From Candidatus Hydrogenedentales bacterium (GTDB lineage: Bacteria; Hydrogenedentota; Hydrogenedentia; Hydrogenedentales; SLHB01), in contig JBMNGZ010000005.1 of NCBI GenBank assembly GCA_050950105.1, positions 320,697-384,696 on the forward strand: a stretch of 64,000 bases of DNA. Reading direction: 5' to 3'. Made by a program: the position numbers and the translations under genes. A model generated the notes under the pieces. It was not told the origin of the DNA and did no database searches. It saw only the letters and a list, made by a program, of their open reading frames with translations. Within the stretch, counting starts at the first letter, position 1. Every line of letters starts with the position of its first letter. Shown here piece after piece: positions 9,478-17,262 of the stretch.

Positions 9478-11526
9478 ATGGACAGCAGACTGAATGTTGA
9501 GGCGTTGAAAGCGAGTCCCGGGCACGGGATCCCCCTTGGGGCTTCGGTGGGCGAAACCGGTGTGCATTTCGCGCTGGTGAGCCGTCATGCCAGGCGCGTG
9601 TGGCTGGCCTTGTTCGACAACCCGGACGACGCGCGTCCCGCCGTGGAGTTCGAGCTGGACGCAGAGCGCAACCGCATCGGCGACGTGTGGAGCATTTTTA
9701 TCGAAAACCTGCATGCGGGCGCGTATTACCTTTTCCGCTTGGACGGGCCCTATGATCCGCCCAAAGGCCACCTCTTCAACCCGGACTGCTATGTGCTCGA
9801 TCCGTATGCGCTGATGGTGACCGGCAGCGTGCAGGATTTCGAGGCCAAGTGCGTGGTCGTCGATATTGAGCGTGGCTGGGAGCCGTATCTCCGGTCGCAA
9901 ACGCGCAAAACGAACTCGATTGTGTACGAGGTGCACATCAAAGGGTTTACCGCGCACGAATCCTCAGGCGTGGGGCATCGCGGGACCTATCGCGGCTTTA
10001 TTGAGAAGATTCCGTATCTCCAGGAGCTGGGCGTCACTGCGGTCGAGCTTATGCCGGTGCAGGAAGTCGGTGAGGAGCAGCTCAAACGCCGGAACCCAAA
10101 GACGGGTGAACGTCTCAAGAACTACTGGGGCTACGCGCCCATCGCGTTTTTTGCTCCGGCCGCGCGATTCGGAAGCAAAGGAGGTATTGGCGAACAATTG
10201 CTCGAATTTCGCGAGCTGGTTTCGGCGTTGCACGAGGCCGGGCTCGAGGTCATTCTCGACGTGGTGTTCAACCACACCGCCGAAGGCGATGAAAAGGGCC
10301 CCACGCTCTGCTTCCGCGGTATCGATCACTCGATCTATTATCTGCTTGATGCTGACGGAAGATGCCTGAACTTTACAGGCTGCGGCAACACGGTGAACTG
10401 CAACCATCCGTTTGTGCGCGACCTGATCGGCGACTGCCTGCGGTACTGGACCACCGTCATGCGGGTCGACGGATTTCGTTTCGATCTGGCGTCGGTTCTC
10501 GGCCGCGATCAAAGCGGGAAACTCGTGGAAAACGCCCCGATCATCGAGCGCATCGCCGAGGACCCTATCCTGCGCGATGTAAAACTCACTGCGGAGGCTT
10601 GGGACGTGGGCGGCGCCTACCAGGTCGGCTCCTTCGGCAACAACGGGCGCTGGTCGGAACTCAACGGCAAGTTTCGCGACGATGTCCGCCGGTATTGGAT
10701 CAATGATCCGGATGCGAAGGGCGCCTTTGCGCTGCGCATCACCGGCAGCCCCGATCTGTACCAGGATGATGGCCGGCGGCCGATTCACAGCGTCAATTTC
10801 GTCACTTCTCATGACGGATTCACCCTGAACGATCTCGTCTCCTACAACAAGAAGCACAACGAGGCCAACGGGGAAGGAAACCGGGATGGGCTGGACCACA
10901 ATCACAGCTACAACTTCGGAGTCGAAGGCGAAACCAATGATCCGGCCATTCTGGCGCTGCGCCTGCAGATGCAACGCAACTTTCTCGCGACCCTTTTCAT
11001 CTCGCTCGGCGTGCCCATGCTTCTCGGGGGCGATGAATTCGGGCGCACTCAGAAAGGCAACAACAACGCTTACTGCCAGGACAACGAGATCTCATGGCAC
11101 GACTGGAGATTGTTGGAGAAAAATGCCGCCCTGTTCCGCTTTTGTAAGGGTATGATCCAGTTTCGTAAAGAAAACGCCGTGTTCGAGCGTTCGACGTTCT
11201 ATACCGGCAACCCGTCGCGGAAAGGCGCTAAACCCGATGTGCGCTGGTTCAGGCCAGACGCTCACGCGCAGGATTGGCAGCCCGCTCAGCCGGCCCTGGG
11301 ATTCTGGATTAATGCCACCGAAAACGACGGCGTCCCTCTCTATCTGTTGTTCAACCCTACGCCGGTCGACATCGAATTCATCCTGCCCAGCGGAGACTGG
11401 TGGCTGCGCGTGAACACCGCCGCTACGTCGCCCGGCGACCTGTATGCGGCCGACAAAGCGCCGCGTGCCGGCGAGACGGGCAAAATGACCGTGGCCGGCC
11501 GTTCGATGGTAATTCTCTCCGGCTGA
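9478..11526 (+). CDS. glgX: Glycogen debranching enzyme (GH13 isoamylase)
   Basis: NYWGY, DVVFNHT, GFRFDLAS (Asp), AEAWD (Glu), SHDGFTL (Asp), GNNNAYCQDN. Confidence 0.95.
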   Translation: MDSRLNVEALKASPGHGIPLGASVGETGVHFALVSRHARRVWLALFDNPDDARPAVEFELDAERNRIGDVWSIFIENLHAGAYYLFRLDGPYDPPKGHLFNPDCYVLDPYALMVTGSVQDFEAKCVVVDIERGWEPYLRSQTRKTNSIVYEVHIKGFTAHESSGVGHRGTYRGFIEKIPYLQELGVTAVELMPVQEVGEEQLKRRNPKTGERLKNYWGYAPIAFFAPAARFGSKGGIGEQLLEFRELVSALHEAGLEVILDVVFNHTAEGDEKGPTLCFRGIDHSIYYLLDADGRCLNFTGCGNTVNCNHPFVRDLIGDCLRYWTTVMRVDGFRFDLASVLGRDQSGKLVENAPIIERIAEDPILRDVKLTAEAWDVGGAYQVGSFGNNGRWSELNGKFRDDVRRYWINDPDAKGAFALRITGSPDLYQDDGRRPIHSVNFVTSHDGFTLNDLVSYNKKHNEANGEGNRDGLDHNHSYNFGVEGETNDPAILALRLQMQRNFLATLFISLGVPMLLGGDEFGRTQKGNNNAYCQDNEISWHDWRLLEKNAALFRFCKGMIQFRKENAVFERSTFYTGNPSRKGAKPDVRWFRPDAHAQDWQPAQPALGFWINATENDGVPLYLLFNPTPVDIEFILPSGDWWLRVNTAATSPGDLYAADKAPRAGETGKMTVAGRSMVILSG

Positions 11527-11584
11527 CAAGCTCCGGGCGCACGTTCGACACATGAGGCCGGCGCCAGTCCGGTCCCGGGCTTGC

Positions 11585-12439
11585 TCACATGGCAGAGAAC
11601 ATGGACTGAAAATCGATTATGGGGGAGGTCTGCATGCGTTGTGCCGCGTTCAGGACGGCTCCGGCCACCGCACAACCGGCCCCAAAGCACAGGGCGGCGG
11701 CGTAGAGGGCCAGGCCGGCTTCAAACACTTTGCGCAGGGTATTGCGCCAGGGCCTTGGGACCGGCAGTCCGGCCATCACGGCCAGCGGCGTCAGGATGAA
11801 GAGGGTCCAGAAAAACAGCGCGCCATCGTATCGCTGGAGCCAGTTCCAGAGACCGGAGAGAACCAGGGCTTCGTTGAACAGCAGGCCGTAGCCGTAATCC
11901 AGGAGCGCGACAAACCCCCACGCCACGTAGCGCAACAACACCGCGCCCAGTATCACGCCCAGCACATACCTGGTCAGGACCCATTTTTCGATGGGAGACG
12001 AAGCACTGCGCCCGGATGCGCGCTGCATAAAGAACAATCCGATGTAAATGACCAGTGCGAATGGCCCGATGAGCAGGCCCAACACGATGGCCCCCAGGCG
12101 CACCTGCGCTGGGCGCCTGCCGGTCTGCTCGCCAATGGCCGCACAGACGCCCAGCCAGCGGCGTTCCTCCTCGAATTGGGTCGCGCGCGCCGCGTCTTGG
12201 TCGAGCGCTTCGGCCAGGCGATGGGCATGATGCGCGGCAGGGCCTACGGCACGCAACGCATGCTCGATATCTTCGTCGCCCGGTATGGCGCCGTCCGGCG
12301 ACGGCACCGCCCTGAGAAGCTCCGAGCGCGCCTTTTTGAGAACGCGCTCGCGCTGGCGTTCGGGCAGATCGCTCATATGTTCGCCCATTCGGCGCAGATA
12401 GCGCCCAATGGCGCGCTCTTGCTGGTCCGTAAGTCTCAT
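11585..12439 (-). CDS. HAAS domain + PspC-like domain membrane protein
   Basis: N-terminal YLRRM..HMSDLPERQRERVL...LRAVGPA (HAAS-like), then RRWLGVCAAIGEQTGRRPAQVRLGAIVLGL (PspC-like) and about 3 more TM helices. ATG 12439 with GGAGG SD. Confidence 0.65.
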   Translation of the reverse strand: MRLTDQQERAIGRYLRRMGEHMSDLPERQRERVLKKARSELLRAVPSPDGAIPGDEDIEHALRAVGPAAHHAHRLAEALDQDAARATQFEEERRWLGVCAAIGEQTGRRPAQVRLGAIVLGLLIGPFALVIYIGLFFMQRASGRSASSPIEKWVLTRYVLGVILGAVLLRYVAWGFVALLDYGYGLLFNEALVLSGLWNWLQRYDGALFFWTLFILTPLAVMAGLPVPRPWRNTLRKVFEAGLALYAAALCFGAGCAVAGAVLNAAQRMQTSPIIDFQSMFSAM

Positions 12440-12572
12440 GCCTCCTCCGCGGTGAAGGAAAGTATACCCCACGCGGAGAAACGGGACCAAATTCGGGAAA
12501 AGACGGCCCTGCGAAACGAAACCGAGCCTCATCAGGGGCGTAAACGGCCCGTGGGGCTACGTCTCAAATGAC

Positions 12573-13469
12573 TTACAGCGCCGCGACTTCGACCCGGCAG
12601 TACCAGTCCGGGACGGGCGTAGCCGGGGTCTCGATTTCTCGCTCCGCAGCGCCGCTTTGAGCGGGTGCCGGAGCACTGTTCGCGGGTATCAGGGCGCTAA
12701 TCGACGCGGCAGCGCGCAGGTCAACGGAAACTACATCGAAGCGCCCACGGGCTTGCTCGACGAAGTCTTTCAGCGGTGTGCAGCCTGTGGCGGAGCCAAT
12801 GGCGGTGGTTTCAACCTGCCGCGCACCGGCTTCCACGGCCGCCAAAGCATGGTGGACGGCCTGGCCGGAGCTGTTGTGGCAGCAGGCCGAGATGATGGCC
12901 CGTGACTCCACGAACTGGACGATGTCGCGCACCATTTCCGTGTAGGCCGCGGTTTTGGCAGTACCCGTGCCGTCGGGGACCGCAATGCGTATCGCGCCCG
13001 CGTTGATGGCAACACCTATGCACTGCCGCCGGAACGGCCGTTCCATGGCCTCCATGCCGTCGATCGAGAACTGGGCCTCGATTCCCTCGGCGCGAACGGC
13101 CGTAACGGCTTTTTCTATTGCGCGGCACCATTCGACGCGCTTTCCGCCACTGCGGGCCGGGTCAGACGGCAGGTACACATGAACCAGTGGTTTCGCGGCA
13201 TGCCTGACGGCGTCGAGCGCGGCGGCGATCTCGGCCGGGTCACAGGCGGCCAAAGCGGCCACTTGGGACGCGCTGATGCTCTTTGCCACGGCGGTGACCA
13301 GGGCGCGTTGCGCCGGGGACTGGGCGGGATGCCCCGCCTCAATGGTTGAAACGCCGGCCTGTTCCAGCACGCGCGCGATGGCGGTGGCCTGGTCTACGGA
13401 AACGGCCGGGCCGGTCCACGCGAAGCGTTGAGACAGCGTGGTATCGTAGATTCGAACTGCTCCGGGCAT
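12573..13469 (-). CDS. 2-isopropylmalate synthase (LeuA/HMGL-like) catalytic-domain homolog, catalytically degenerate
   Basis: Colinear with the LeuA TIM barrel (IYDTTL, IEAG, GAIRIAVPD, IISACCHN, AVEAGARQVE), but RDGEQ, HxH and GERAGN are lost and there is no regulatory domain. SD GAAGGAG. Confidence 0.8.
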   Translation of the reverse strand: MPGAVRIYDTTLSQRFAWTGPAVSVDQATAIARVLEQAGVSTIEAGHPAQSPAQRALVTAVAKSISASQVAALAACDPAEIAAALDAVRHAAKPLVHVYLPSDPARSGGKRVEWCRAIEKAVTAVRAEGIEAQFSIDGMEAMERPFRRQCIGVAINAGAIRIAVPDGTGTAKTAAYTEMVRDIVQFVESRAIISACCHNSSGQAVHHALAAVEAGARQVETTAIGSATGCTPLKDFVEQARGRFDVVSVDLRAAASISALIPANSAPAPAQSGAAEREIETPATPVPDWYCRVEVAAL

Positions 13470-13609
13470 GATAAATCTCCTTCAGACAGAGTCAATGCGG
13501 TGTATGTGGAAAAAGAGCCGTCACACCGCACCAAGCGCCCGGATCTGAGGCCAGGTAGCCCCACATCCATACGACACCACCTCCCTTCAGCGGCCCCCTT
13601 GATGGGACC

Positions 13610-13644
13610 AAAAAAAAGAGCCGCGGGCTTTTTCGGCCCGCGGC
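13610..13644 (-). terminator. Intrinsic terminator (attenuator) upstream of the leuA-like gene
   Basis: Minus strand GCCGCGGGC-cgaaaaa-GCCCGCGGC-TC-T8: 9-bp GC stem followed by 8 U. Confidence 0.9.
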
Positions 13645-13675
13645 CTTGAGTTCCAGAACCCTTACGGGGTGTTGA

Positions 13676-13759
13676 TTAAGGAATTCGAGGCATAATGGGC
13701 CGGCCTTCCTCCACGAGGAGGAGTGAGAGTAGGCGGCTCATATGCTTCGAATTAACCAC
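13676..13759 (-). CDS. Leu-rich attenuator leader peptide (leuL-like), MVNSKHMSRLLSLLLVEEGRPIMPRIP
   Basis: GTG 13759 with AAGGA 8 nt upstream (alternative in-frame ATG 13741); codons CTA CTC TCA CTC CTC CTC; TAA at 13676-13678, about 30 nt before the terminator. Confidence 0.75.
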   Translation of the reverse strand: MVNSKHMSRLLSLLLVEEGRPIMPRIP

Positions 13760-13790
13760 TATGTAAATCCTTCGTCTACTACTTGGAGAG

Positions 13791-13819
13791 ACTATAACAT
13801 CTCTTCCACGTCCCGTCAA
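13791..13819 (-). promoter_or_regulatory. Sigma70-type promoter for the leader/leuA-like transcript
   Basis: TTGACG-17 nt-TATAGT with extended -10 TGn. Confidence 0.8.
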
Positions 13820-13979
13820 ATCTCCTTTTTTCCTGCAAAGGCATCGTGACCCCGGCCAGGCGCGTTACACGGGCCCTTCTATTGAGAAACTGAGGGTTTT
13901 TGTGGCACAGTGAGCGCGCTTGGAGGCCCTTCGTATTGGGATTTTCTGGAATTCTGGCATTGCGGAAGGAGAAGCGACG

Positions 13980-14432
13980 ATGCTCAAAGAGTTCAAAGAG
14001 TTCGCATTGCGCGGAAACGTGGTCGATATGGCAGTAGGTATTGTCATAGGCGGCGCGTTCGGCACCATTGTGAAGAGTCTCGTGGATGATGTGCTGATGC
14101 CTCCCATCGGCTGGGTCGTGGGCGGGGTAGATTTTTCCAATTTCTTCCTGGTCATCAAGGACGGCAGCACTCCGGGACCCTACGTTTCCCTGGGCGCGGC
14201 AAAGACAGCGGGCGCGGTGACCCTCAATTACGGGCTTTTCGCGAATTCCGTGATCAGTTTCCTCATTGTGGCCTTTGCCCTGTTTATGGTCGTCAAGGCA
14301 ATGAATCAGCTGCACCGGACGGGAGAACCCGCAGCCGAACCCGCCACGAAAGACTGCCCGTTCTGCCTGTCGTCGATCCCGCTCAAAGCGAGCCGCTGCC
14401 CGCATTGCACCTCGGCCATTGAGGCGGCCTGA
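13980..14432 (+). CDS. mscL: Large-conductance mechanosensitive channel with C-terminal CxxC-x10-CxxC
   Basis: [41 protein letters not shown]; tail KDCPFC...RCPHC. Confidence 0.95.
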
Positions 14433-14605
14433 GGCGTAACGGACACGCCGACGAGACGAGACCGGGGAGCCGGCCGTGGCGCGACTGAATTCGCCGCATC
14501 GCGGCGTGCAACGCGCACGAAGCCCCGTTCACGTGGGCGCCGTGTGGCGCAGGGCGCTCGGAGCAAAACCTCAGGGCGGGCGATTGCCATTGACGGCGGC
14601 GGCTG

Positions 14606-14614
14606 TGCTACACT
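14606..14614 (+). promoter_or_regulatory. Possible extended -10 promoter element
   Basis: TGcTACACT; candidate -35 boxes sit at non-canonical spacing. Confidence 0.35.
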
Positions 14615-14850
14615 GAAGGGCAAACCGGGGAGAACGGCGAGGGGCCTTGGAAGCCTGCCCAGGACGAGTGAAGCGCGAGATCTGCGTGCTTCGTGTTCCA
14701 TCCGCCGCCGGTTCACCTGTTGCCCGCCGGTATCCTGGGTCCGATACGGCAACCCGACGGATGAATCCGCTTTGAAACACCCGGTGTTGCAGGCGAGAAC
14801 ATATAACAGTAACAGGCAGAGGCGCGCCGCTGAGGTTTTTCGGGTAGAGC

Positions 14851-17262
14851 ATGTGTAGGCGATATTTACTTGTCATTATGCTGGGGGTGCTGTGTGCCGG
14901 AGCGGCGGGCGCGATGGAGGCGGGCGCGGCGAAGGTTGAGATAACCCCCGAATTGGGCACGCCGCTTGCCGGGAGTTACCAGCGAATGGGGCGCGGCGCG
15001 ACAGCCGTGCACGACCCGTTTTATGTGCGGGCTCTTTATCTTGAAGACGGCGAGACCCAGGTATTTCTTGTGTCAGCCGACCTGGCCGCGATCAGCCCTG
15101 AGCTTCGCGAAGCGGTGCTCGAACGCCCCTTGCACGACGTGCCGCGCGAAAACGTCTTCCTGACCGCTACCCACACGATGAACGGGCCGGGAGGGATGGT
15201 CTATTCTCCCGCGTTTCGGGTTCTCACGGGGCGGTACATGCCCGAGCTGGTGGAATCCATGGCCGACCGCTTCGCAGAAGCCATGGCCGAGGCCTACGGC
15301 AACCGAAAACGCGCCACGCTCGGATTTGGCACAGCGGAGCCGCCGGCACTGTCACGCAATGCCGTCATCAAAGACGGCTCAGTCGACAGCCAGCTGGGTG
15401 TGTTGCGCGTGAATGACTCCGACGGCAAGCCGCTGGCTATCGTCGGCAATTTTGGCGCGCGCTGCATCGGGGCCACCATCCCCGGGCCCGAGATGCTGAC
15501 ATTGAGCGCCGATGTGCCCGGGCGTTTTTGCGAGGAACTGGAGAAGCTGGCCGAAGGGTCTATTGCGATGTTCCTGCAGGGCGCCTGTGGCGACGCCGAG
15601 TTCGGGAACCCGTCGGGTGCGACCGGCTGGGCGCGCGTGGAAACGGCCGGCCGGGCGCTGGCCCAGCTCGCGTTTGAAACGGCGCAGACCATCAAGAGCA
15701 ACGATCAGCCGATCACGGTGTCTTTTGCGAACGTGGAGTTTCCTCCTACCCTGGCCGATGCCTACCTGCCGTCGGCCGCCCCGCTGGCCACGCTGGAAAT
15801 CGGCTCGTTGGCGATGACGTTTCTTCCCGGCGCTCCAGGCGGCGCTCTATCAAAGCAATTGCGCTCGTTTTGTCTCAAACTCGGGTATGAGGCCCAGTTT
15901 ACCGTGGGCGTTGCCAACGATTACCGGTTCTTTTTCCTTTCTGGAGCCGAATTCTCCGCGCCCGGCCCGGAGAGCCTGCTGTCGTTTTATGGACCGGGCA
16001 TGGGGGACTGGCTGCTCGCGAACTTCTCGCGCTTGCTGTCGAAGGGGTCCGCCGGCGAGCCCGTCGTTCGGGAAGATTCGCCCGAGGTGCATGCCGAAAG
16101 CGGGATCCAGCGCATCATTCTAAAAGGCACGCCCTACCAGCTTGGGCACGCGAGGGGAGCGGCGTTTCGTGAAACCCTTCAGACCCAGTTCGAGGAGCGC
16201 TATGCCGAACCGGCGGTCTGGGGCACGCTGGCGCCGCCAGAACCCTTCGTGGCCAGTCTGCCCGAATGCGTAAGGCCGTATCTCGCGCTGTCCAACGTGA
16301 CGCTTCCCTGGCTGGCCTTGCGATCGAGGGCCTTGCTGACTGGCCTGCCGGAGGGCCTGCTCGAGGAGCTTGCCGGCATGGCGTCGGGAGCGGAGATGCC
16401 TTTTGACGCGGCCTGGCTGGTCCAGTGCGAGCCGATGATGGAGGCCGGGGAGCGGCGGGAAGGCGCGCCGCCGGAATCGTTTGGCGTCATGTTCGCGGTG
16501 GTTGGCTTGAAGGCCGGAGCGGATGACATCCTGGTCGGACATAATCTCGACGCTCCGGAGCCCTTTGCTCCCGTGGTCTACGATGTATCTCCGGTCCAGG
16601 GTTTTCGCTATTTTCTGGTCGGGGCTCCCGCGCGTTTTGGTGGTTTCAGCGGTATGAACGAGGAAGGTGTAGTGCTCTGTGTCGAACGGAATGAGCTGCT
16701 TGGGTCGCCTTCCCAGTCCGGTCCGTCCGTTGAGCTGCTTGCAGCTCATGTCTTGAACAAGGCCCGGAACGCCTGGGCGGCCCTTGAGATGATAGAGACC
16801 TTCCCGCAGCTGAAGGGCTACCATATTCTCCTGGGTGACCCCGTTTCGAGCAGCAATGCGCCACCTCCGGCACGGGTCATGACGCTCGATGCGAGCCCCC
16901 GCTTGCGGGCGCCTACACAGGGCACTTTGCTCGGCGCCAATCCAGAAGCAGAACAGCTGAGCGATGCCGCCCGCGAGCGGTATCTGCGGCTGGCTGCGCT
17001 GATCGCGGACGAGCGCCACGTCAATCCGCTTGAAGCCCAAGAGTTTTTGTCGGATTCTCAAAAGGACGTGCCCGAAACATCGAGCGTCTTTAACCTCAAT
17101 ACACGGTATAGCGTGGTCTTTGAGCCGAAAGCGCGATGCATGCACGTTGCAGCGCCAGCACCGGATGGCGGCCCCGGGCCGTACCTGCGCTTTGAGTTTG
17201 AATCCGACGCCGAGCCCAAGGGCACGGAACCAGCCGGGGAAACAGGCGGGAGCCTGCGATGA
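14851..17262 (+). CDS. Secreted fusion of neutral ceramidase-like N-terminal domain and C45/NAAA (Ntn-hydrolase)-like domain, both apparently degenerate
   Basis: Signal peptide; GAAKVEITP, HDPFYVRALYL, TATHTMNGPG, QGACGD; then ILKGTPYQLGHARG, EELAGMA, GHNLD, GFSGMNEEG. Confidence 0.7.
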   Translation: MCRRYLLVIMLGVLCAGAAGAMEAGAAKVEITPELGTPLAGSYQRMGRGATAVHDPFYVRALYLEDGETQVFLVSADLAAISPELREAVLERPLHDVPRENVFLTATHTMNGPGGMVYSPAFRVLTGRYMPELVESMADRFAEAMAEAYGNRKRATLGFGTAEPPALSRNAVIKDGSVDSQLGVLRVNDSDGKPLAIVGNFGARCIGATIPGPEMLTLSADVPGRFCEELEKLAEGSIAMFLQGACGDAEFGNPSGATGWARVETAGRALAQLAFETAQTIKSNDQPITVSFANVEFPPTLADAYLPSAAPLATLEIGSLAMTFLPGAPGGALSKQLRSFCLKLGYEAQFTVGVANDYRFFFLSGAEFSAPGPESLLSFYGPGMGDWLLANFSRLLSKGSAGEPVVREDSPEVHAESGIQRIILKGTPYQLGHARGAAFRETLQTQFEERYAEPAVWGTLAPPEPFVASLPECVRPYLALSNVTLPWLALRSRALLTGLPEGLLEELAGMASGAEMPFDAAWLVQCEPMMEAGERREGAPPESFGVMFAVVGLKAGADDILVGHNLDAPEPFAPVVYDVSPVQGFRYFLVGAPARFGGFSGMNEEGVVLCVERNELLGSPSQSGPSVELLAAHVLNKARNAWAALEMIETFPQLKGYHILLGDPVSSSNAPPPARVMTLDASPRLRAPTQGTLLGANPEAEQLSDAARERYLRLAALIADERHVNPLEAQEFLSDSQKDVPETSSVFNLNTRYSVVFEPKARCMHVAAPAPDGGPGPYLRFEFESDAEPKGTEPAGETGGSLR

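What the first reader, a model, noticed from the sequence alone, without database searches (positions are those of the whole stretch)
13610..13819. Complete, unannotated leucine transcription attenuator
Seen on the minus strand: promoter TTGACG-17-TGtTATAGT; SD AAGGA; a 27-codon leader (or 21 codons from ATG 13741) with CTA-CTC-TCA-CTC-CTC-CTC (5 Leu in 6 codons); then a 9-bp GC terminator with U8. CGGCCC in the distal leader is complementary to GGGCCG in the terminator 5' arm (candidate antiterminator). TCCTC in the Leu codons can pair with GAGGA just downstream (candidate protector). Known: this is the classical leu attenuation layout. The striking point is that it controls a catalytically dead LeuA homolog, so the cell would make a pseudoenzyme specifically when Leu-tRNA is short.
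Basis: partly seen in the sequence, partly recalled or inferred. Interest (0 to 1): 0.75.

Follow-up and report, generated by a model that had tools for sequence, protein, structure and literature searches.

The report
Leucine attenuator before a dead LeuA
This is a real, conserved leucine-sensing leader-peptide transcription attenuator of the classical kind, found across the uncultured phylum Hydrogenedentota upstream of a short isopropylmalate-synthase gene, and in this genome's lineage it has been kept almost unchanged although the enzyme it controls has lost its catalytic residues.

Summary

I found homologous leaders in 10 sequence-distinct Hydrogenedentota lineages, always upstream of a LeuA-like gene. 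Each has an SD, a start codon and a Leu-rich ORF: 74 Leu in 279 residues, using all six Leu codons. The ORF lies inside a long hairpin (1:2), followed by a terminator (3:4).

A structural alignment of 14 leaders shows strong covariation for these helices. It also supports an antiterminator (2:3) that is larger than the one proposed. Three independent G-to-A changes in the terminator 5' arm are each matched by C-to-U in both region 2 and the 3' arm.

The geometry fits the classical model. A ribosome stalled on the Leu codons frees region 2, and one at the stop codon masks it.

The attenuator predates the pseudoenzyme. Distant relatives have an intact 380-406 aa IPMS. The window clade has a 298-aa version without catalytic residues, still under purifying selection.

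A second conserved block, a very strong SD plus uORF2, lies between terminator and gene and is unexplained.

There is no direct in-vivo test. This is a known mechanism in a new phylum.

The parts
13791..13819 (-). Sigma-70-type promoter: -35 TTGACG (13819-13814), 17-nt spacer, extended -10 TGtTATAGT (13799-13791). The likely start of transcription is near A13784.
   Evidence: 10 of 12 matches, TG present. The -35 and -10 are conserved in L001, L002 and L004 while the flanking DNA diverges. Comparable promoters at the same distance can be read in L012 and L038.
13768..13772 (-). Shine-Dalgarno AAGGA of the leader ORF, 8 nt before the GTG start. In the free RNA it can pair with UCCUU at the 3' base of hairpin P1.
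   Evidence: A purine-rich SD lies 4-10 nt before the start codon in all 10 lineages (sequences).
13676..13759 (-). Leader ORF uORF1: GTG start, 27 codons plus TAA, VVNSKHMSRLLSLLLVEEGRPIMPRIP.
   Evidence: Its nucleotide identity to L002 and L004 is 98.8-100%, although synonymous divergence of neighbouring genes is dS 0.6-0.8. Homologous ORFs occur in 10 lineages.
13715..13732 (-). Sensor codons CTA CTC TCA CTC CTC CTC (5 Leu in 6). They lie in the upper 5' arm and apical helix of P1.
   Evidence: CTA is the rarest Leu codon here (1.1% of Leu codons) and CTC makes up 27%. The Leu run is kept in frame in all lineages, using all six Leu codons.
13683..13752 (-). Hairpin P1 (region 1 paired with region 2; the protector or pause structure). 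It contains almost the whole leader ORF, and its apical helix is CUCCUC:GAGGAG.
   Evidence: minimum-energy fold; the four P1 helices (23 pairs) are 86-99% paired in 14 leaders, and 10 of those pairs have compensatory double changes.
13680..13702 (-). Region 2, the 5' strand of the antiterminator: CGGCCC..GCCU..GA..UUCC. The same bases form the 3' arm of P1.
   Evidence: (fold with the ribosome on the Leu codons), and (covariation with region 3).
13634..13654 (-). Region 3, the 3' strand of the antiterminator: GGAA..UC..AGGC..GGGCCG. It overlaps the 5' arm of the terminator.
   Evidence: Three-way covariation is seen at alignment columns 180-182.
13610..13645 (-). Intrinsic terminator (region 3 paired with region 4): 10-bp stem GGCCGCGGGC/GCCCGCGGCU, loop CGAAAAA, then C and U8.
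   Evidence: Energy -22.2 kcal/mol. In 14 leaders it is 98.6% paired, with 5 covarying pairs.
13592..13609 (-). Small hairpin GGUCCC-AUCAA-GGGGGCC just after the U-tract. The stem is kept while the loop varies.
   Evidence: GGTCCCATCAAGGGGGCC in the window against GGCCCCGGAACAGGGGCC and GGCCCCCGAACCGGGGCC in relatives.
13523..13587 (-). Second conserved leader block. It has a very long SD, AAGGGAGGUGGU (13587-13576), then ATG 13570 opening uORF2 (MDVGLPGLRSGRLVRC...). The whole uORF2 is 13570-13394. It is out of frame with the main gene and ends 76 nt inside it. Its function is unknown.
   Evidence: It is present once per locus in every lineage, about 120-127 nt before the main ATG. The Leu5 codon varies as CUA/CUU/CUC/CUG, which is a coding signature. 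uORF2 is only 9 codons long in L077 and 6 in L081.
12573..13469 (-). The regulated gene: a 298-aa HMGL-like (LeuA catalytic barrel) protein with its own SD, GAAGGAG 13483-13477. It lacks the catalytic motifs and the C-terminal subdomains.
   Evidence: PF00682, E = 3.8e-36; far below every IPMS cut-off; motif loss; omega 0.27-0.45.
11585..12439 (-). Next gene on the same strand: a 284-aa PspC-domain membrane protein starting MRLTDQQ. It is probably co-transcribed with the gene above.
   Evidence: The same gene pair is seen in L002-L009, L010, L012, L038 and L076.

Best explanation
This is a ribosome-mediated (leader-peptide) transcription attenuator that senses charged tRNA-Leu.

**How it works (inferred).** Transcription starts near 13784, and a ribosome loads on uORF1.
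- When Leu-tRNA is plentiful, the ribosome runs to the TAA (13678-13676). There it covers region 2, or after release the 1:2 hairpin P1 re-forms. Region 3 then pairs with region 4, and RNA polymerase terminates at the U8 tract (13617-13610).
- When Leu-tRNA is scarce, the ribosome stalls on the CTA/CTC codons (13732-13715). It occupies region 1 and ends about 15 nt before CGGCCC, so region 2 is free.
- Free region 2 pairs with region 3 as it emerges (antiterminator, about -24 kcal/mol). The terminator cannot form, and transcription reads into the LeuA-like gene and probably the PspC-domain gene.
- With no translation at all, P1 forms and termination follows.

**History.** The element is ancestral in Hydrogenedentota, where it controls a short IPMS with no regulatory domain. 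In the window's clade the enzyme became a non-catalytic but still selected protein, while the attenuator was kept nearly base for base.

**Shown:** sequence elements, their conservation, covariation of the three helices, and the geometry.
**Inferred:** translation of uORF1, stalling, Leu dependence, and termination efficiency.
For: 1. All elements are at the stated coordinates.

2. The leader is conserved. Across the window clade, uORF1 is 98.8-100% and the spacer plus terminator 91-100% identical in nucleotides. Neighbouring genes have dS 0.6-0.8 and only 57-68% identity at fourfold sites.

3. Homologous leaders stand upstream of every LeuA-like gene whose upstream DNA could be fetched. These are L012, L038 and L076-L082, whose proteins are 57-81% identical to one another.

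4. Leu is enriched in the leader peptides:
- Leu makes up 74 of 279 leader residues, against 9.6% in the window's genes.
- Each lineage has 4-7 Leu in its best 10-codon window.
- All six Leu codons are used, so the amino acid is conserved rather than the bases.
- The C-terminal reading frame differs in L038 and L077 while the nucleotides are kept. Region 2 RNA is therefore what is conserved there, not the peptide.

5. Covariation of P1, P2 and the terminator in 14 leaders:
- 95.4% of cells are paired.
- 17 pairs show double changes, against 4.4 +/- 1.5 in shuffles (0/500) and 3-7 when partners are slid.

6. Covariation of the antiterminator, counted on an alignment not fitted to it:
- 82.4% of cells are paired.
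- 4 pairs show double changes, against 1.2 in shuffles (0/500) and 0-1 when slid.
- G-to-A changes in the terminator 5' arm in L078, L077 and L082 are each matched by C-to-U in region 2 and in the 3' arm.

7. Folding with a 29-nt footprint on the Leu codons, before the 3' arm is made, gives the 2:3 helix in nine of the ten lineages tested, all but L082. The 2:3 duplex beats dinucleotide shuffles in nine lineages (0-24 of 1000), including L082 at 0 of 1000.

8. The regulated gene family is LeuA/IPMS, which is the cognate pathway.

9. No conserved promoter lies between terminator and gene. The 13495 match overlaps the ATG and is not conserved.

10. In L079 an ORF-less group II intron sits directly after the U-tract. 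This is the usual target of IIC introns (PMC1702495), and is indirect support that the hairpin is a terminator motif.
Against: - There is no experimental or quantitative RNA evidence. The RNA runs available are assembled contigs only. One (X27) spans 13526-13702, which shows that read-through RNA exists in a relative but says nothing about regulation.
- In the window clade alone, the 2:3 duplex is not significantly better than shuffles of this GC-rich sequence (91 and 129 of 1000).
- The CUCCUC codons are also constrained by pairing with GAGGAG, so part of the Leu run could be structural.
- Several leaders (L080-L082) interleave Arg codons with Leu, so specificity may not be purely for Leu.
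- The regulated protein here is not an enzyme, so the physiological logic of Leu control is unclear.
- The structural alignment A4 was fitted to the P1/terminator model, which inflates those pair counts somewhat.
Confidence: 0.78

Rival explanations
1. It is a terminator/antiterminator leader that reports general translation capacity or several amino acids (for example Leu plus Arg), not leucine specifically. Any ribosome slowing in uORF1 would raise read-through.
For: Arg codons are interleaved with Leu in L080 (NLNLRLRLGRPRG), L082 (VLRLRLALLLRG) and L081, and Arg is the second most frequent residue (27 of 279). The target in the window is not a Leu enzyme.
Against: Leu is the only residue enriched in every lineage. 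The regulated family is IPMS. The runs LLLPLLL and LLLL..LLLL are typical single-amino-acid sensors.
Confidence: 0.1
2. The roughly 175-nt terminated transcript (13784-13610), or its peptide, is mainly a trans-acting small RNA or micro-protein, and control of the downstream gene is secondary. This would resemble rnTrpL/peTrpL, which derive from the Sinorhizobium trp attenuator.
For: uORF1 is 98.8-100% identical in nucleotides across a clade with dS 0.6-0.8. That is more than cis-regulation usually needs, and it holds even though the enzyme downstream is dead. There is precedent in PMC6614838 and PMC7298713.
Against: The element always sits in cis before the same gene family, once per locus. 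Overlapping constraints from the codons and two alternative structures can explain the conservation. The peptide C-terminus is not conserved in frame. No target is known.
Confidence: 0.07
3. It is a nascent-peptide arrest sensor (like TnaC, SecM or MifM), in which the peptide sequence, for example the ending PRIP-stop, stalls the ribosome in response to a ligand or to membrane state. The PspC and MscL neighbours might suggest the latter.
For: The window peptide ends in Pro-stop and is invariant within its clade. The neighbours are membrane proteins.
Against: Across lineages the C-terminal peptide changes frame and sequence (MPRIP, LPRMT, CLEFPK, NASNFFFLT, VLLRPE), while the RNA pairing and the Leu run are kept. 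The mscL and PspC linkage is absent in L077-L082.
Confidence: 0.03
4. It is a metabolite- or protein-binding riboswitch or attenuator, and the ORF is incidental.
For: The RNA is highly structured and conserved. The second conserved block has no explanation.
Against: No Rfam family matches, even at E up to 10. SD, start codon and in-frame Leu run are conserved in all lineages despite indels. The structure has no conserved unpaired pocket; it is essentially one long helix plus a terminator.
Confidence: 0.02

Closest known systems
leuL leader of the enterobacterial leuABCD operon (Rfam Leu_leader RF00512)
   Same: Both have a leader peptide of about 28 codons with a run of Leu codons, partly rare CUA. 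Both use 1:2, 2:3 and 3:4 alternative helices and an intrinsic terminator before leuA. The logic and the spacing between sensor codons and region 2 are the same (own knowledge of the classical model; geometry).
   Different: There is no sequence or covariance-model similarity (no Rfam hit). The phylum is different. The gene controlled is a single short IPMS-like gene rather than leuABCD. A second conserved uORF block follows the terminator. In the window the target is non-catalytic.
Predicted leuA leader-peptide attenuators of Actinobacteria (Seliverstov et al. 2005, PMC1262725)
   Same: Both are Leu-codon leader ORFs directly upstream of a stand-alone leuA in high-GC bacteria, and both were found by comparative genomics.
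   Different: The sequences are unrelated. The actinobacterial leuA is full length with a regulatory domain. Here the IPMS lacks the Leu-binding domain, so attenuation may be its only leucine control.
Leucine-rich attenuator peptide of the Staphylococcus aureus ilv-leu operon (PMC5794164)
   Same: Both use a Leu-rich leader peptide with a terminator to control branched-chain amino acid biosynthesis genes.
   Different: That element controls a whole operon and acts together with CodY. It has been tested experimentally, whereas this one has not.
trpL attenuator of Sinorhizobium meliloti, with trans-acting rnTrpL and peTrpL (PMC6614838, PMC7298713)
   Same: It is an attenuator whose released RNA and peptide have functions of their own. 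This offers a possible reason for the near-total conservation seen here.
   Different: There is no evidence here for any trans function, and the amino acid sensed is different.

Membership tests
Ribosome-mediated (leader-peptide) transcription attenuators | A short ORF with SD and start codon in the 5' leader | tested here: met
   GTG 13759 is preceded by AAGGA. An SD plus ATG is conserved in 9 other lineages.
Ribosome-mediated (leader-peptide) transcription attenuators | A cluster of codons for the regulatory amino acid | tested here: met
   There are 5 Leu in 6 codons. Only 5 of 127,966 such windows exist in the 64 kb. Leu makes up 74 of 279 residues across lineages, and all six Leu codons are used.
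Ribosome-mediated (leader-peptide) transcription attenuators | An intrinsic terminator between the leader ORF and the structural gene | tested here: met
   (10 bp, U8). Energy is -22 kcal/mol. The stem is 98.6% paired with 5 covarying pairs.
Ribosome-mediated (leader-peptide) transcription attenuators | An antiterminator that excludes the terminator and uses its 5' arm | tested here: met
   (constrained folds). (4 covarying pairs, 0/500 shuffles). Three-way covariation with the terminator.
Ribosome-mediated (leader-peptide) transcription attenuators | A 1:2 hairpin that holds the sensor codons and excludes the antiterminator | tested here: met
   The P1 helices are 86-99% paired with 10 covarying pairs. 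Alignment columns 102-108 and 113-114 take part in both P1 and the antiterminator.
Ribosome-mediated (leader-peptide) transcription attenuators | Geometry: a ribosome stalled at the sensor codons frees region 2, and a ribosome at the stop codon masks it | tested here: met
   The last Leu codon begins at 13717 and CGGCCC at 13702, 15 nt apart. The TAA at 13678-13676 lies inside region 2. The arrangement is the same in L012.
Ribosome-mediated (leader-peptide) transcription attenuators | The regulated gene belongs to the pathway of the sensed amino acid | tested here: inconclusive
   This is met in relatives, which have an intact IPMS-like enzyme. In the window the homologue has lost its catalytic residues.
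Ribosome-mediated (leader-peptide) transcription attenuators | Read-through depends on the supply of the charged tRNA in vivo | not testable with these tools
   Only assembled RNA contigs were available. One spans the terminator in a relative.
Rfam Leu_leader (RF00512) and other curated leader families | A match to the family covariance model | tested here: not met
   cmscan of 12000-15000 at E up to 10 gave only chance hits to terminator-like models. Nothing reached gathering score in L012, L077 or L079-L081 apart from the group II intron.
2-isopropylmalate synthase (LeuA), for the downstream gene | An HMGL-like TIM-barrel domain | tested here: met
   PF00682, E = 3.8e-36, residues 5-260. The best solved relative is 3rmj_A, the IPMS of N. 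meningitidis.
2-isopropylmalate synthase (LeuA), for the downstream gene | Metal-binding and catalytic motifs (RDGEQ, EFSxED, DTVG, HxHND, GERAGN, HSSGIHQ) | tested here: not met
   These read SQRFA, QFSIDG, DGTG, CCHNS and GSATGC. The HSSGIHQ subdomain is absent.
2-isopropylmalate synthase (LeuA), for the downstream gene | Scores reach a curated equivalog cut-off; subdomain II and the LeuA_dimer domain are present | tested here: not met
   The best score is 137 bits against a cut-off of 532. There is no PF22617 or PF08502.

The most novel reading that the evidence does not exclude
In this clade a leucine-starvation sensor no longer controls leucine synthesis. It now controls a non-catalytic IPMS-derived protein, which carries a new conserved C-terminal motif PxWYCRVEVAAL, together with a PspC-domain membrane protein. 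This would be a starvation-induced signalling or stress module built from a dead enzyme.

The near-total nucleotide conservation of the leader could additionally reflect a trans-acting function of the terminated 175-nt RNA or of its peptide. The second ultra-strong SD/uORF2 block would add a separate translational checkpoint.
Probability: 0.3. Interest if true: 0.75.

Novelty: new member of a known kind. Interest (0 to 1): 0.5.

Why it matters
It extends classical leader-peptide attenuation to a candidate phylum with no cultured model organism. The comparative evidence is unusually clean, with three-way covariation between region 2, region 3 and region 4.

It suggests that the short, regulatory-domain-less IPMS of Hydrogenedentota is controlled by leucine at the level of transcription rather than by feedback inhibition.

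The window's clade is a natural experiment. The sensor has been kept nearly base for base, and the ORF remains under purifying selection, after the enzyme lost its active site. That argues for a new, non-catalytic role induced by leucine starvation.

The unexplained second block is a defined target for study of two-tier leader control.

Tried and rejected
- **Rfam:** the scan of the region at E up to 10 gave only chance or terminator-like hits.
- **Genome tools:** I could not look for another leuA, for leuBCD or for tRNA-Leu genes in this genome.
- **RNA-seq:** the runs found are stored only as contigs. X25 covers everything evenly and probably contains DNA. X27 and X26 show relatives' transcripts crossing the terminator, but no termination ratio can be derived.
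- **Metagenome pattern scan:** it gave 63 stretches, of which about 50 were chance matches inside unrelated genes. Thirteen were true, most of them near-identical to L004.
- **L011:** coverage 0.7 with many indels, so it was left out of the alignments.
- **Second promoter-like site** TTGACT-16-TATCAT (13495-13468): rejected as the gene's promoter. Its -10 overlaps the ATG, and it is not conserved in L002.
- **The + strand ORF 11552-12571** (339 aa): it has no family and an Arg/Gly/Gln-rich composition, and is the antisense shadow of the PspC gene.
- **First cmsearch alignment (A3):** it was polluted by reverse-strand hits to the palindromic hairpin, so I redid it with a stricter threshold.
- **Block 2 as an RNA structure only:** RNAalifold finds just a weak hairpin with 2 covarying pairs, so this was not adopted.
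- **Earlier notes:** a sequence look-up in them found nothing similar.
Full report
**Observation**

- Promoter: TTGACG 13819-13814, 17 nt, TGtTATAGT 13799-13791 (10 of 12 matches with TG).
- SD: AAGGA 13772-13768.
- ORF: GTG 13759 to TAA 13676, encoding VVNSKHMSRLLSLLLVEEGRPIMPRIP.
- Leu codons: CTA CTC TCA CTC CTC CTC at 13732-13715.
- Terminator: stem 13645-13619 (10 pairs, 9 of them G-C), then C and T8 to 13610. Its energy is -22 kcal/mol.

The 191-nt leader folds far better than shuffles (z = -4.2). It forms one long hairpin (P1) that contains nearly the whole ORF, with CUCCUC paired to GAGGAG at its tip, followed by the terminator.

Five or more Leu in six codons occurs in only 5 of 127,966 windows across all six frames of the 64 kb. 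CTA is the rarest Leu codon here, at 1.1% of Leu codons.

**Surroundings**

The gene after the leader is a 298-aa HMGL-like protein (PF00682). It scores far below every IPMS cut-off (137 bits against 532).

A 284-aa PspC-domain membrane protein follows on the same strand (12439-11585). It runs convergently into glgX (9478-11526).

The 339-aa + strand ORF 11552-12571 is an antisense artefact.

The organism belongs to Candidatus Hydrogenedentota.

**Conservation within the clade**

The arrangement mscL, leader, LeuA-like gene, PspC gene (and in some a HEAT-repeat gene), then glgX recurs in L001-L009, whose LeuA-like proteins are 62-82% identical to the window's.

Between the window and L002 or L004, neighbouring genes have dS 0.6-0.8 and only 57-68% identity at fourfold sites.
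- uORF1 is nevertheless 98.8-100% identical in nucleotides, and the spacer plus terminator 91-94%.
- The DNA upstream of the promoter is about 60% identical.
- The three substitutions seen in uORF1 are all at third codon positions in the GTG frame.
- One of them turns ATG 13741 into ATA in L001, so the GTG is the start.

**Conservation across the phylum**

A pattern scan of metagenomes and look-ups of relatives of the intact enzyme gave nine more divergent leaders. All lie upstream of a LeuA-like gene.

| Locus | Leader peptide |
|---|---|
| L012 | MTNSRHLTSLHLPLLLTEESRPAMPRIS |
| L038 | MTNSKNLTSLHLPLLPLGGEQ... |
| L076 | MNSTQTLGLLLTLLLTEGSGSVLPRMT |
| L077 | MCNSKHITSLLLPLLLLEDAGSSCLEFPK |
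| L078 | MFNSKHTLGLLLPLLLVEESGPAVPRIL |
| L079 | MTCLKHNSLRLLLLQGGLLLLGARGFVLLRPE |
| L080 | MNTQRHNLNLRLRLGRPRGSVAPCRV |
| L081 | MFFNSKHQLELRLPRLLLLEVRRSVVPRILY |
| L082 | MRISRHIAVLRLRLALLLRGSGPLCLDCT |

(Sequences.)

- Leu makes up 74 of 279 residues (26.5%), against 9.6% in the window's genes.
- All six Leu codons occur. It is therefore the amino acid, not a nucleotide string, that is kept.
- By contrast, the C-terminal part changes reading frame in L038 and L077 while its nucleotides (AUGCCUCGAAUU) stay.
- That part is conserved as RNA, because it is region 2.

**Structures**

I built a covariance model from the window-clade alignment plus L012 and L038. It recovered all leaders, one per locus, and nothing else in the window.

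On the resulting alignment of 14 leaders (A4), P1, a small hairpin and the terminator are well supported:
- 95.4% of cells are paired.
- 17 pairs show changes on both sides, against 4.4 +/- 1.5 in shuffles (0/500).
- Sliding the partners gives only 3-7 such pairs.

This alignment is fitted to that structure, so the numbers lean in its favour.

The antiterminator was not part of the model, so its test is fairer. Region 2 (columns 102-117) against region 3 (172-185) gives:
- 82.4% of cells paired.
- 4 pairs with double changes, against 1.2 in shuffles (0/500) and 0-1 when slid.

The clearest evidence is three-way covariation:
- The terminator 5' arm reads CGCGGGC in most leaders, CGCGAGC in L077, CGCAGGA in L078 and CACGGAC in L082.
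- Each G-to-A change is matched by C-to-U in the terminator 3' arm.
- Each is also matched by C-to-U in region 2.

One strand therefore has two alternative partners, and selection keeps both.

**Geometry**

I placed a 29-nt footprint on the Leu codons and withheld the terminator 3' arm. The minimum-energy fold then pairs region 2 with region 3 in nine of the ten lineages tested, all but L082.

In the window the antiterminator is CGGCCC:GGGCCG plus GCCU:AGGC, GA:UC and UUCC:GGAA, with a duplex energy of -24.3 kcal/mol. This explains why the spacer UCUGGAACUCAAGG is invariant.

The 2:3 duplex is stronger than 1000 dinucleotide shuffles of region 2 in most lineages:

| Lineage | Shuffles at least as strong (of 1000) |
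|---|---|
| L012 | 0 |
| L082 | 0 |
| L076 | 2 |
| L079 | 3 |
| L077 | 5 |
| L078 | 9 |
| L080 | 9 |
| L038 | 19 |
| L081 | 24 |
| window | 91 |
| L014 | 129 |

The window clade is thus only marginal on this test.

The last Leu codon starts 15 nt before CGGCCC, at the 3' edge of a stalled ribosome. The stop codon lies inside region 2, so a ribosome that reaches it blocks the antiterminator.

This is the layout of the trp and leu attenuators of enteric bacteria (own knowledge).

**What it controls**

In L012, L038 and L076-L082 the downstream protein is 381-406 aa long. It has every IPMS motif (RDGEQ, EFSPED, PDTVG, HCHND, GERAGN, HSSGIHQ). It scores best against IPMS models but lacks the C-terminal leucine-binding domain. 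Attenuation may therefore be its main leucine control; this is inference.

The motifs decay in steps:
- L010 and L014 keep RD.
- L002 and L004 read REGFA.
- The window and L001 read SQRFA, QFSIDG, DGTG, CCHNS and GSATGC.

All the roughly 300-aa forms have lost subdomain II (compared with 3rmj_A).

The gene is not decaying freely. Its omega is 0.27-0.45, against 0.03-0.17 for mscL and the PspC gene. The short forms also share a new C-terminal motif, PxWYCRVEVAAL.

The attenuator is therefore older than the pseudoenzyme and was retained, very tightly, after catalysis was lost.

**Second leader block**

Every lineage has a conserved module between the terminator and the gene: GAAAGGAGGUGGUGUC-NN-AUGGAY-NN-GGGGCU...AUCC. 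It is present once per locus and begins 120-127 nt before the main ATG in most lineages.
- AAAGGAGGUGGU could pair over 12 nt with the 3' end of 16S rRNA (own knowledge of the anti-SD sequence).
- The ATG (13570 in the window) opens uORF2, which starts M-D/E-x-G-L.
- Its Leu5 codon varies as CUA, CUU, CUC and CUG, which is a coding signature.
- In nine of the eleven lineages uORF2 runs out of frame past the main ATG (sequences). It is only 9 codons long in L077 and 6 in L081.
- A weak hairpin encloses the AUG.

I cannot say what this block does. A translational checkpoint on read-through transcripts is a guess.

**Other evidence**
- Rfam has no family for either block.
- The literature search found no description in Hydrogenedentota. 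Similar elements are known or predicted for leuA in Actinobacteria (PMC1262725) and for ilv-leu in S. aureus (PMC5794164).
- An RNA contig from activated sludge crosses the terminator (13526-13702). Read-through transcripts therefore exist in a relative.
- In L079 an ORF-less group II intron begins with GTGCG three bases after the U-tract. IIC introns typically insert after terminator motifs (PMC1702495).

**Verdict**

This is a leucine leader-peptide attenuator, a known mechanism, newly seen in this phylum and not in Rfam.

The unusual points are its near-perfect retention in front of a dead but selected LeuA homologue, and the unexplained second block.

Still missing is any direct measurement of leucine-dependent termination, and knowledge of whether this genome has another leuA.

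Noticed in passing
window 13523-13587 (uORF2 13394-13570); also L012, L038, L076-L082: A second conserved leader block lies between the attenuator terminator and the gene. It has a 12-nt SD-like AAGGGAGGTGGT and then ATG GAT..GGG CTN (uORF2, starting M-D-x-G-L). It sits about 120-127 nt before the main ATG, once per locus. uORF2 usually overlaps the main start out of frame, but it is only 9 codons long in L077 and 6 in L081. Its function is unknown.
   Followed up: partly
L079:1751-2355: An ORF-less group II intron (Rfam D1-D4 and domain V/VI hits) is inserted in sense orientation three bases after the U-tract of the attenuator terminator, inside the leader of an intact short IPMS gene. This is the usual insertion site of IIC introns.
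   Followed up: partly
L080:2140-2330 and L081:1990-2230: Several copies of a palindromic repeat about 27 nt long (GTCATTCCCGCGAAAGCGGGAATCCAG-like), in both orientations, are inserted between the attenuator terminator and block 2. They lengthen the leader by 270-450 nt.
   Followed up: no
window 12573-13469 and relatives: The IPMS motifs decay stepwise across lineages, from intact through RDGIA/RDKVA and REGFA to SQRFA. The roughly 300-aa forms share a new conserved C-terminal motif, PxWYCRVEVAAL. Omega is 0.27-0.45, so the gene is still selected.
   Followed up: partly
window 11526-11585 versus L002:5152-6123 and L004:5084-6055: L002-L009 carry a 323-aa HEAT-repeat gene between the PspC gene and glgX. 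That gene is absent from the window, where the PspC gene and glgX end 58 nt apart.
   Followed up: no
window 11552-12571 (+): This 339-aa ORF has no family match and an Arg/Gly/Gln-rich composition. It is the antisense shadow of the PspC-domain gene, not a gene.
   Followed up: yes
window 11585-12439 (-): The N-terminus of the PspC-domain protein (MRLTDQQERAIGRYLRR..LPERQRERVL) resembles, from memory, the DUF1700/HAAS-type sensor N-termini. Its pairing with the LeuA-like gene is conserved in the window clade, L012, L038 and L076, but not in L077-L082.
   Followed up: no
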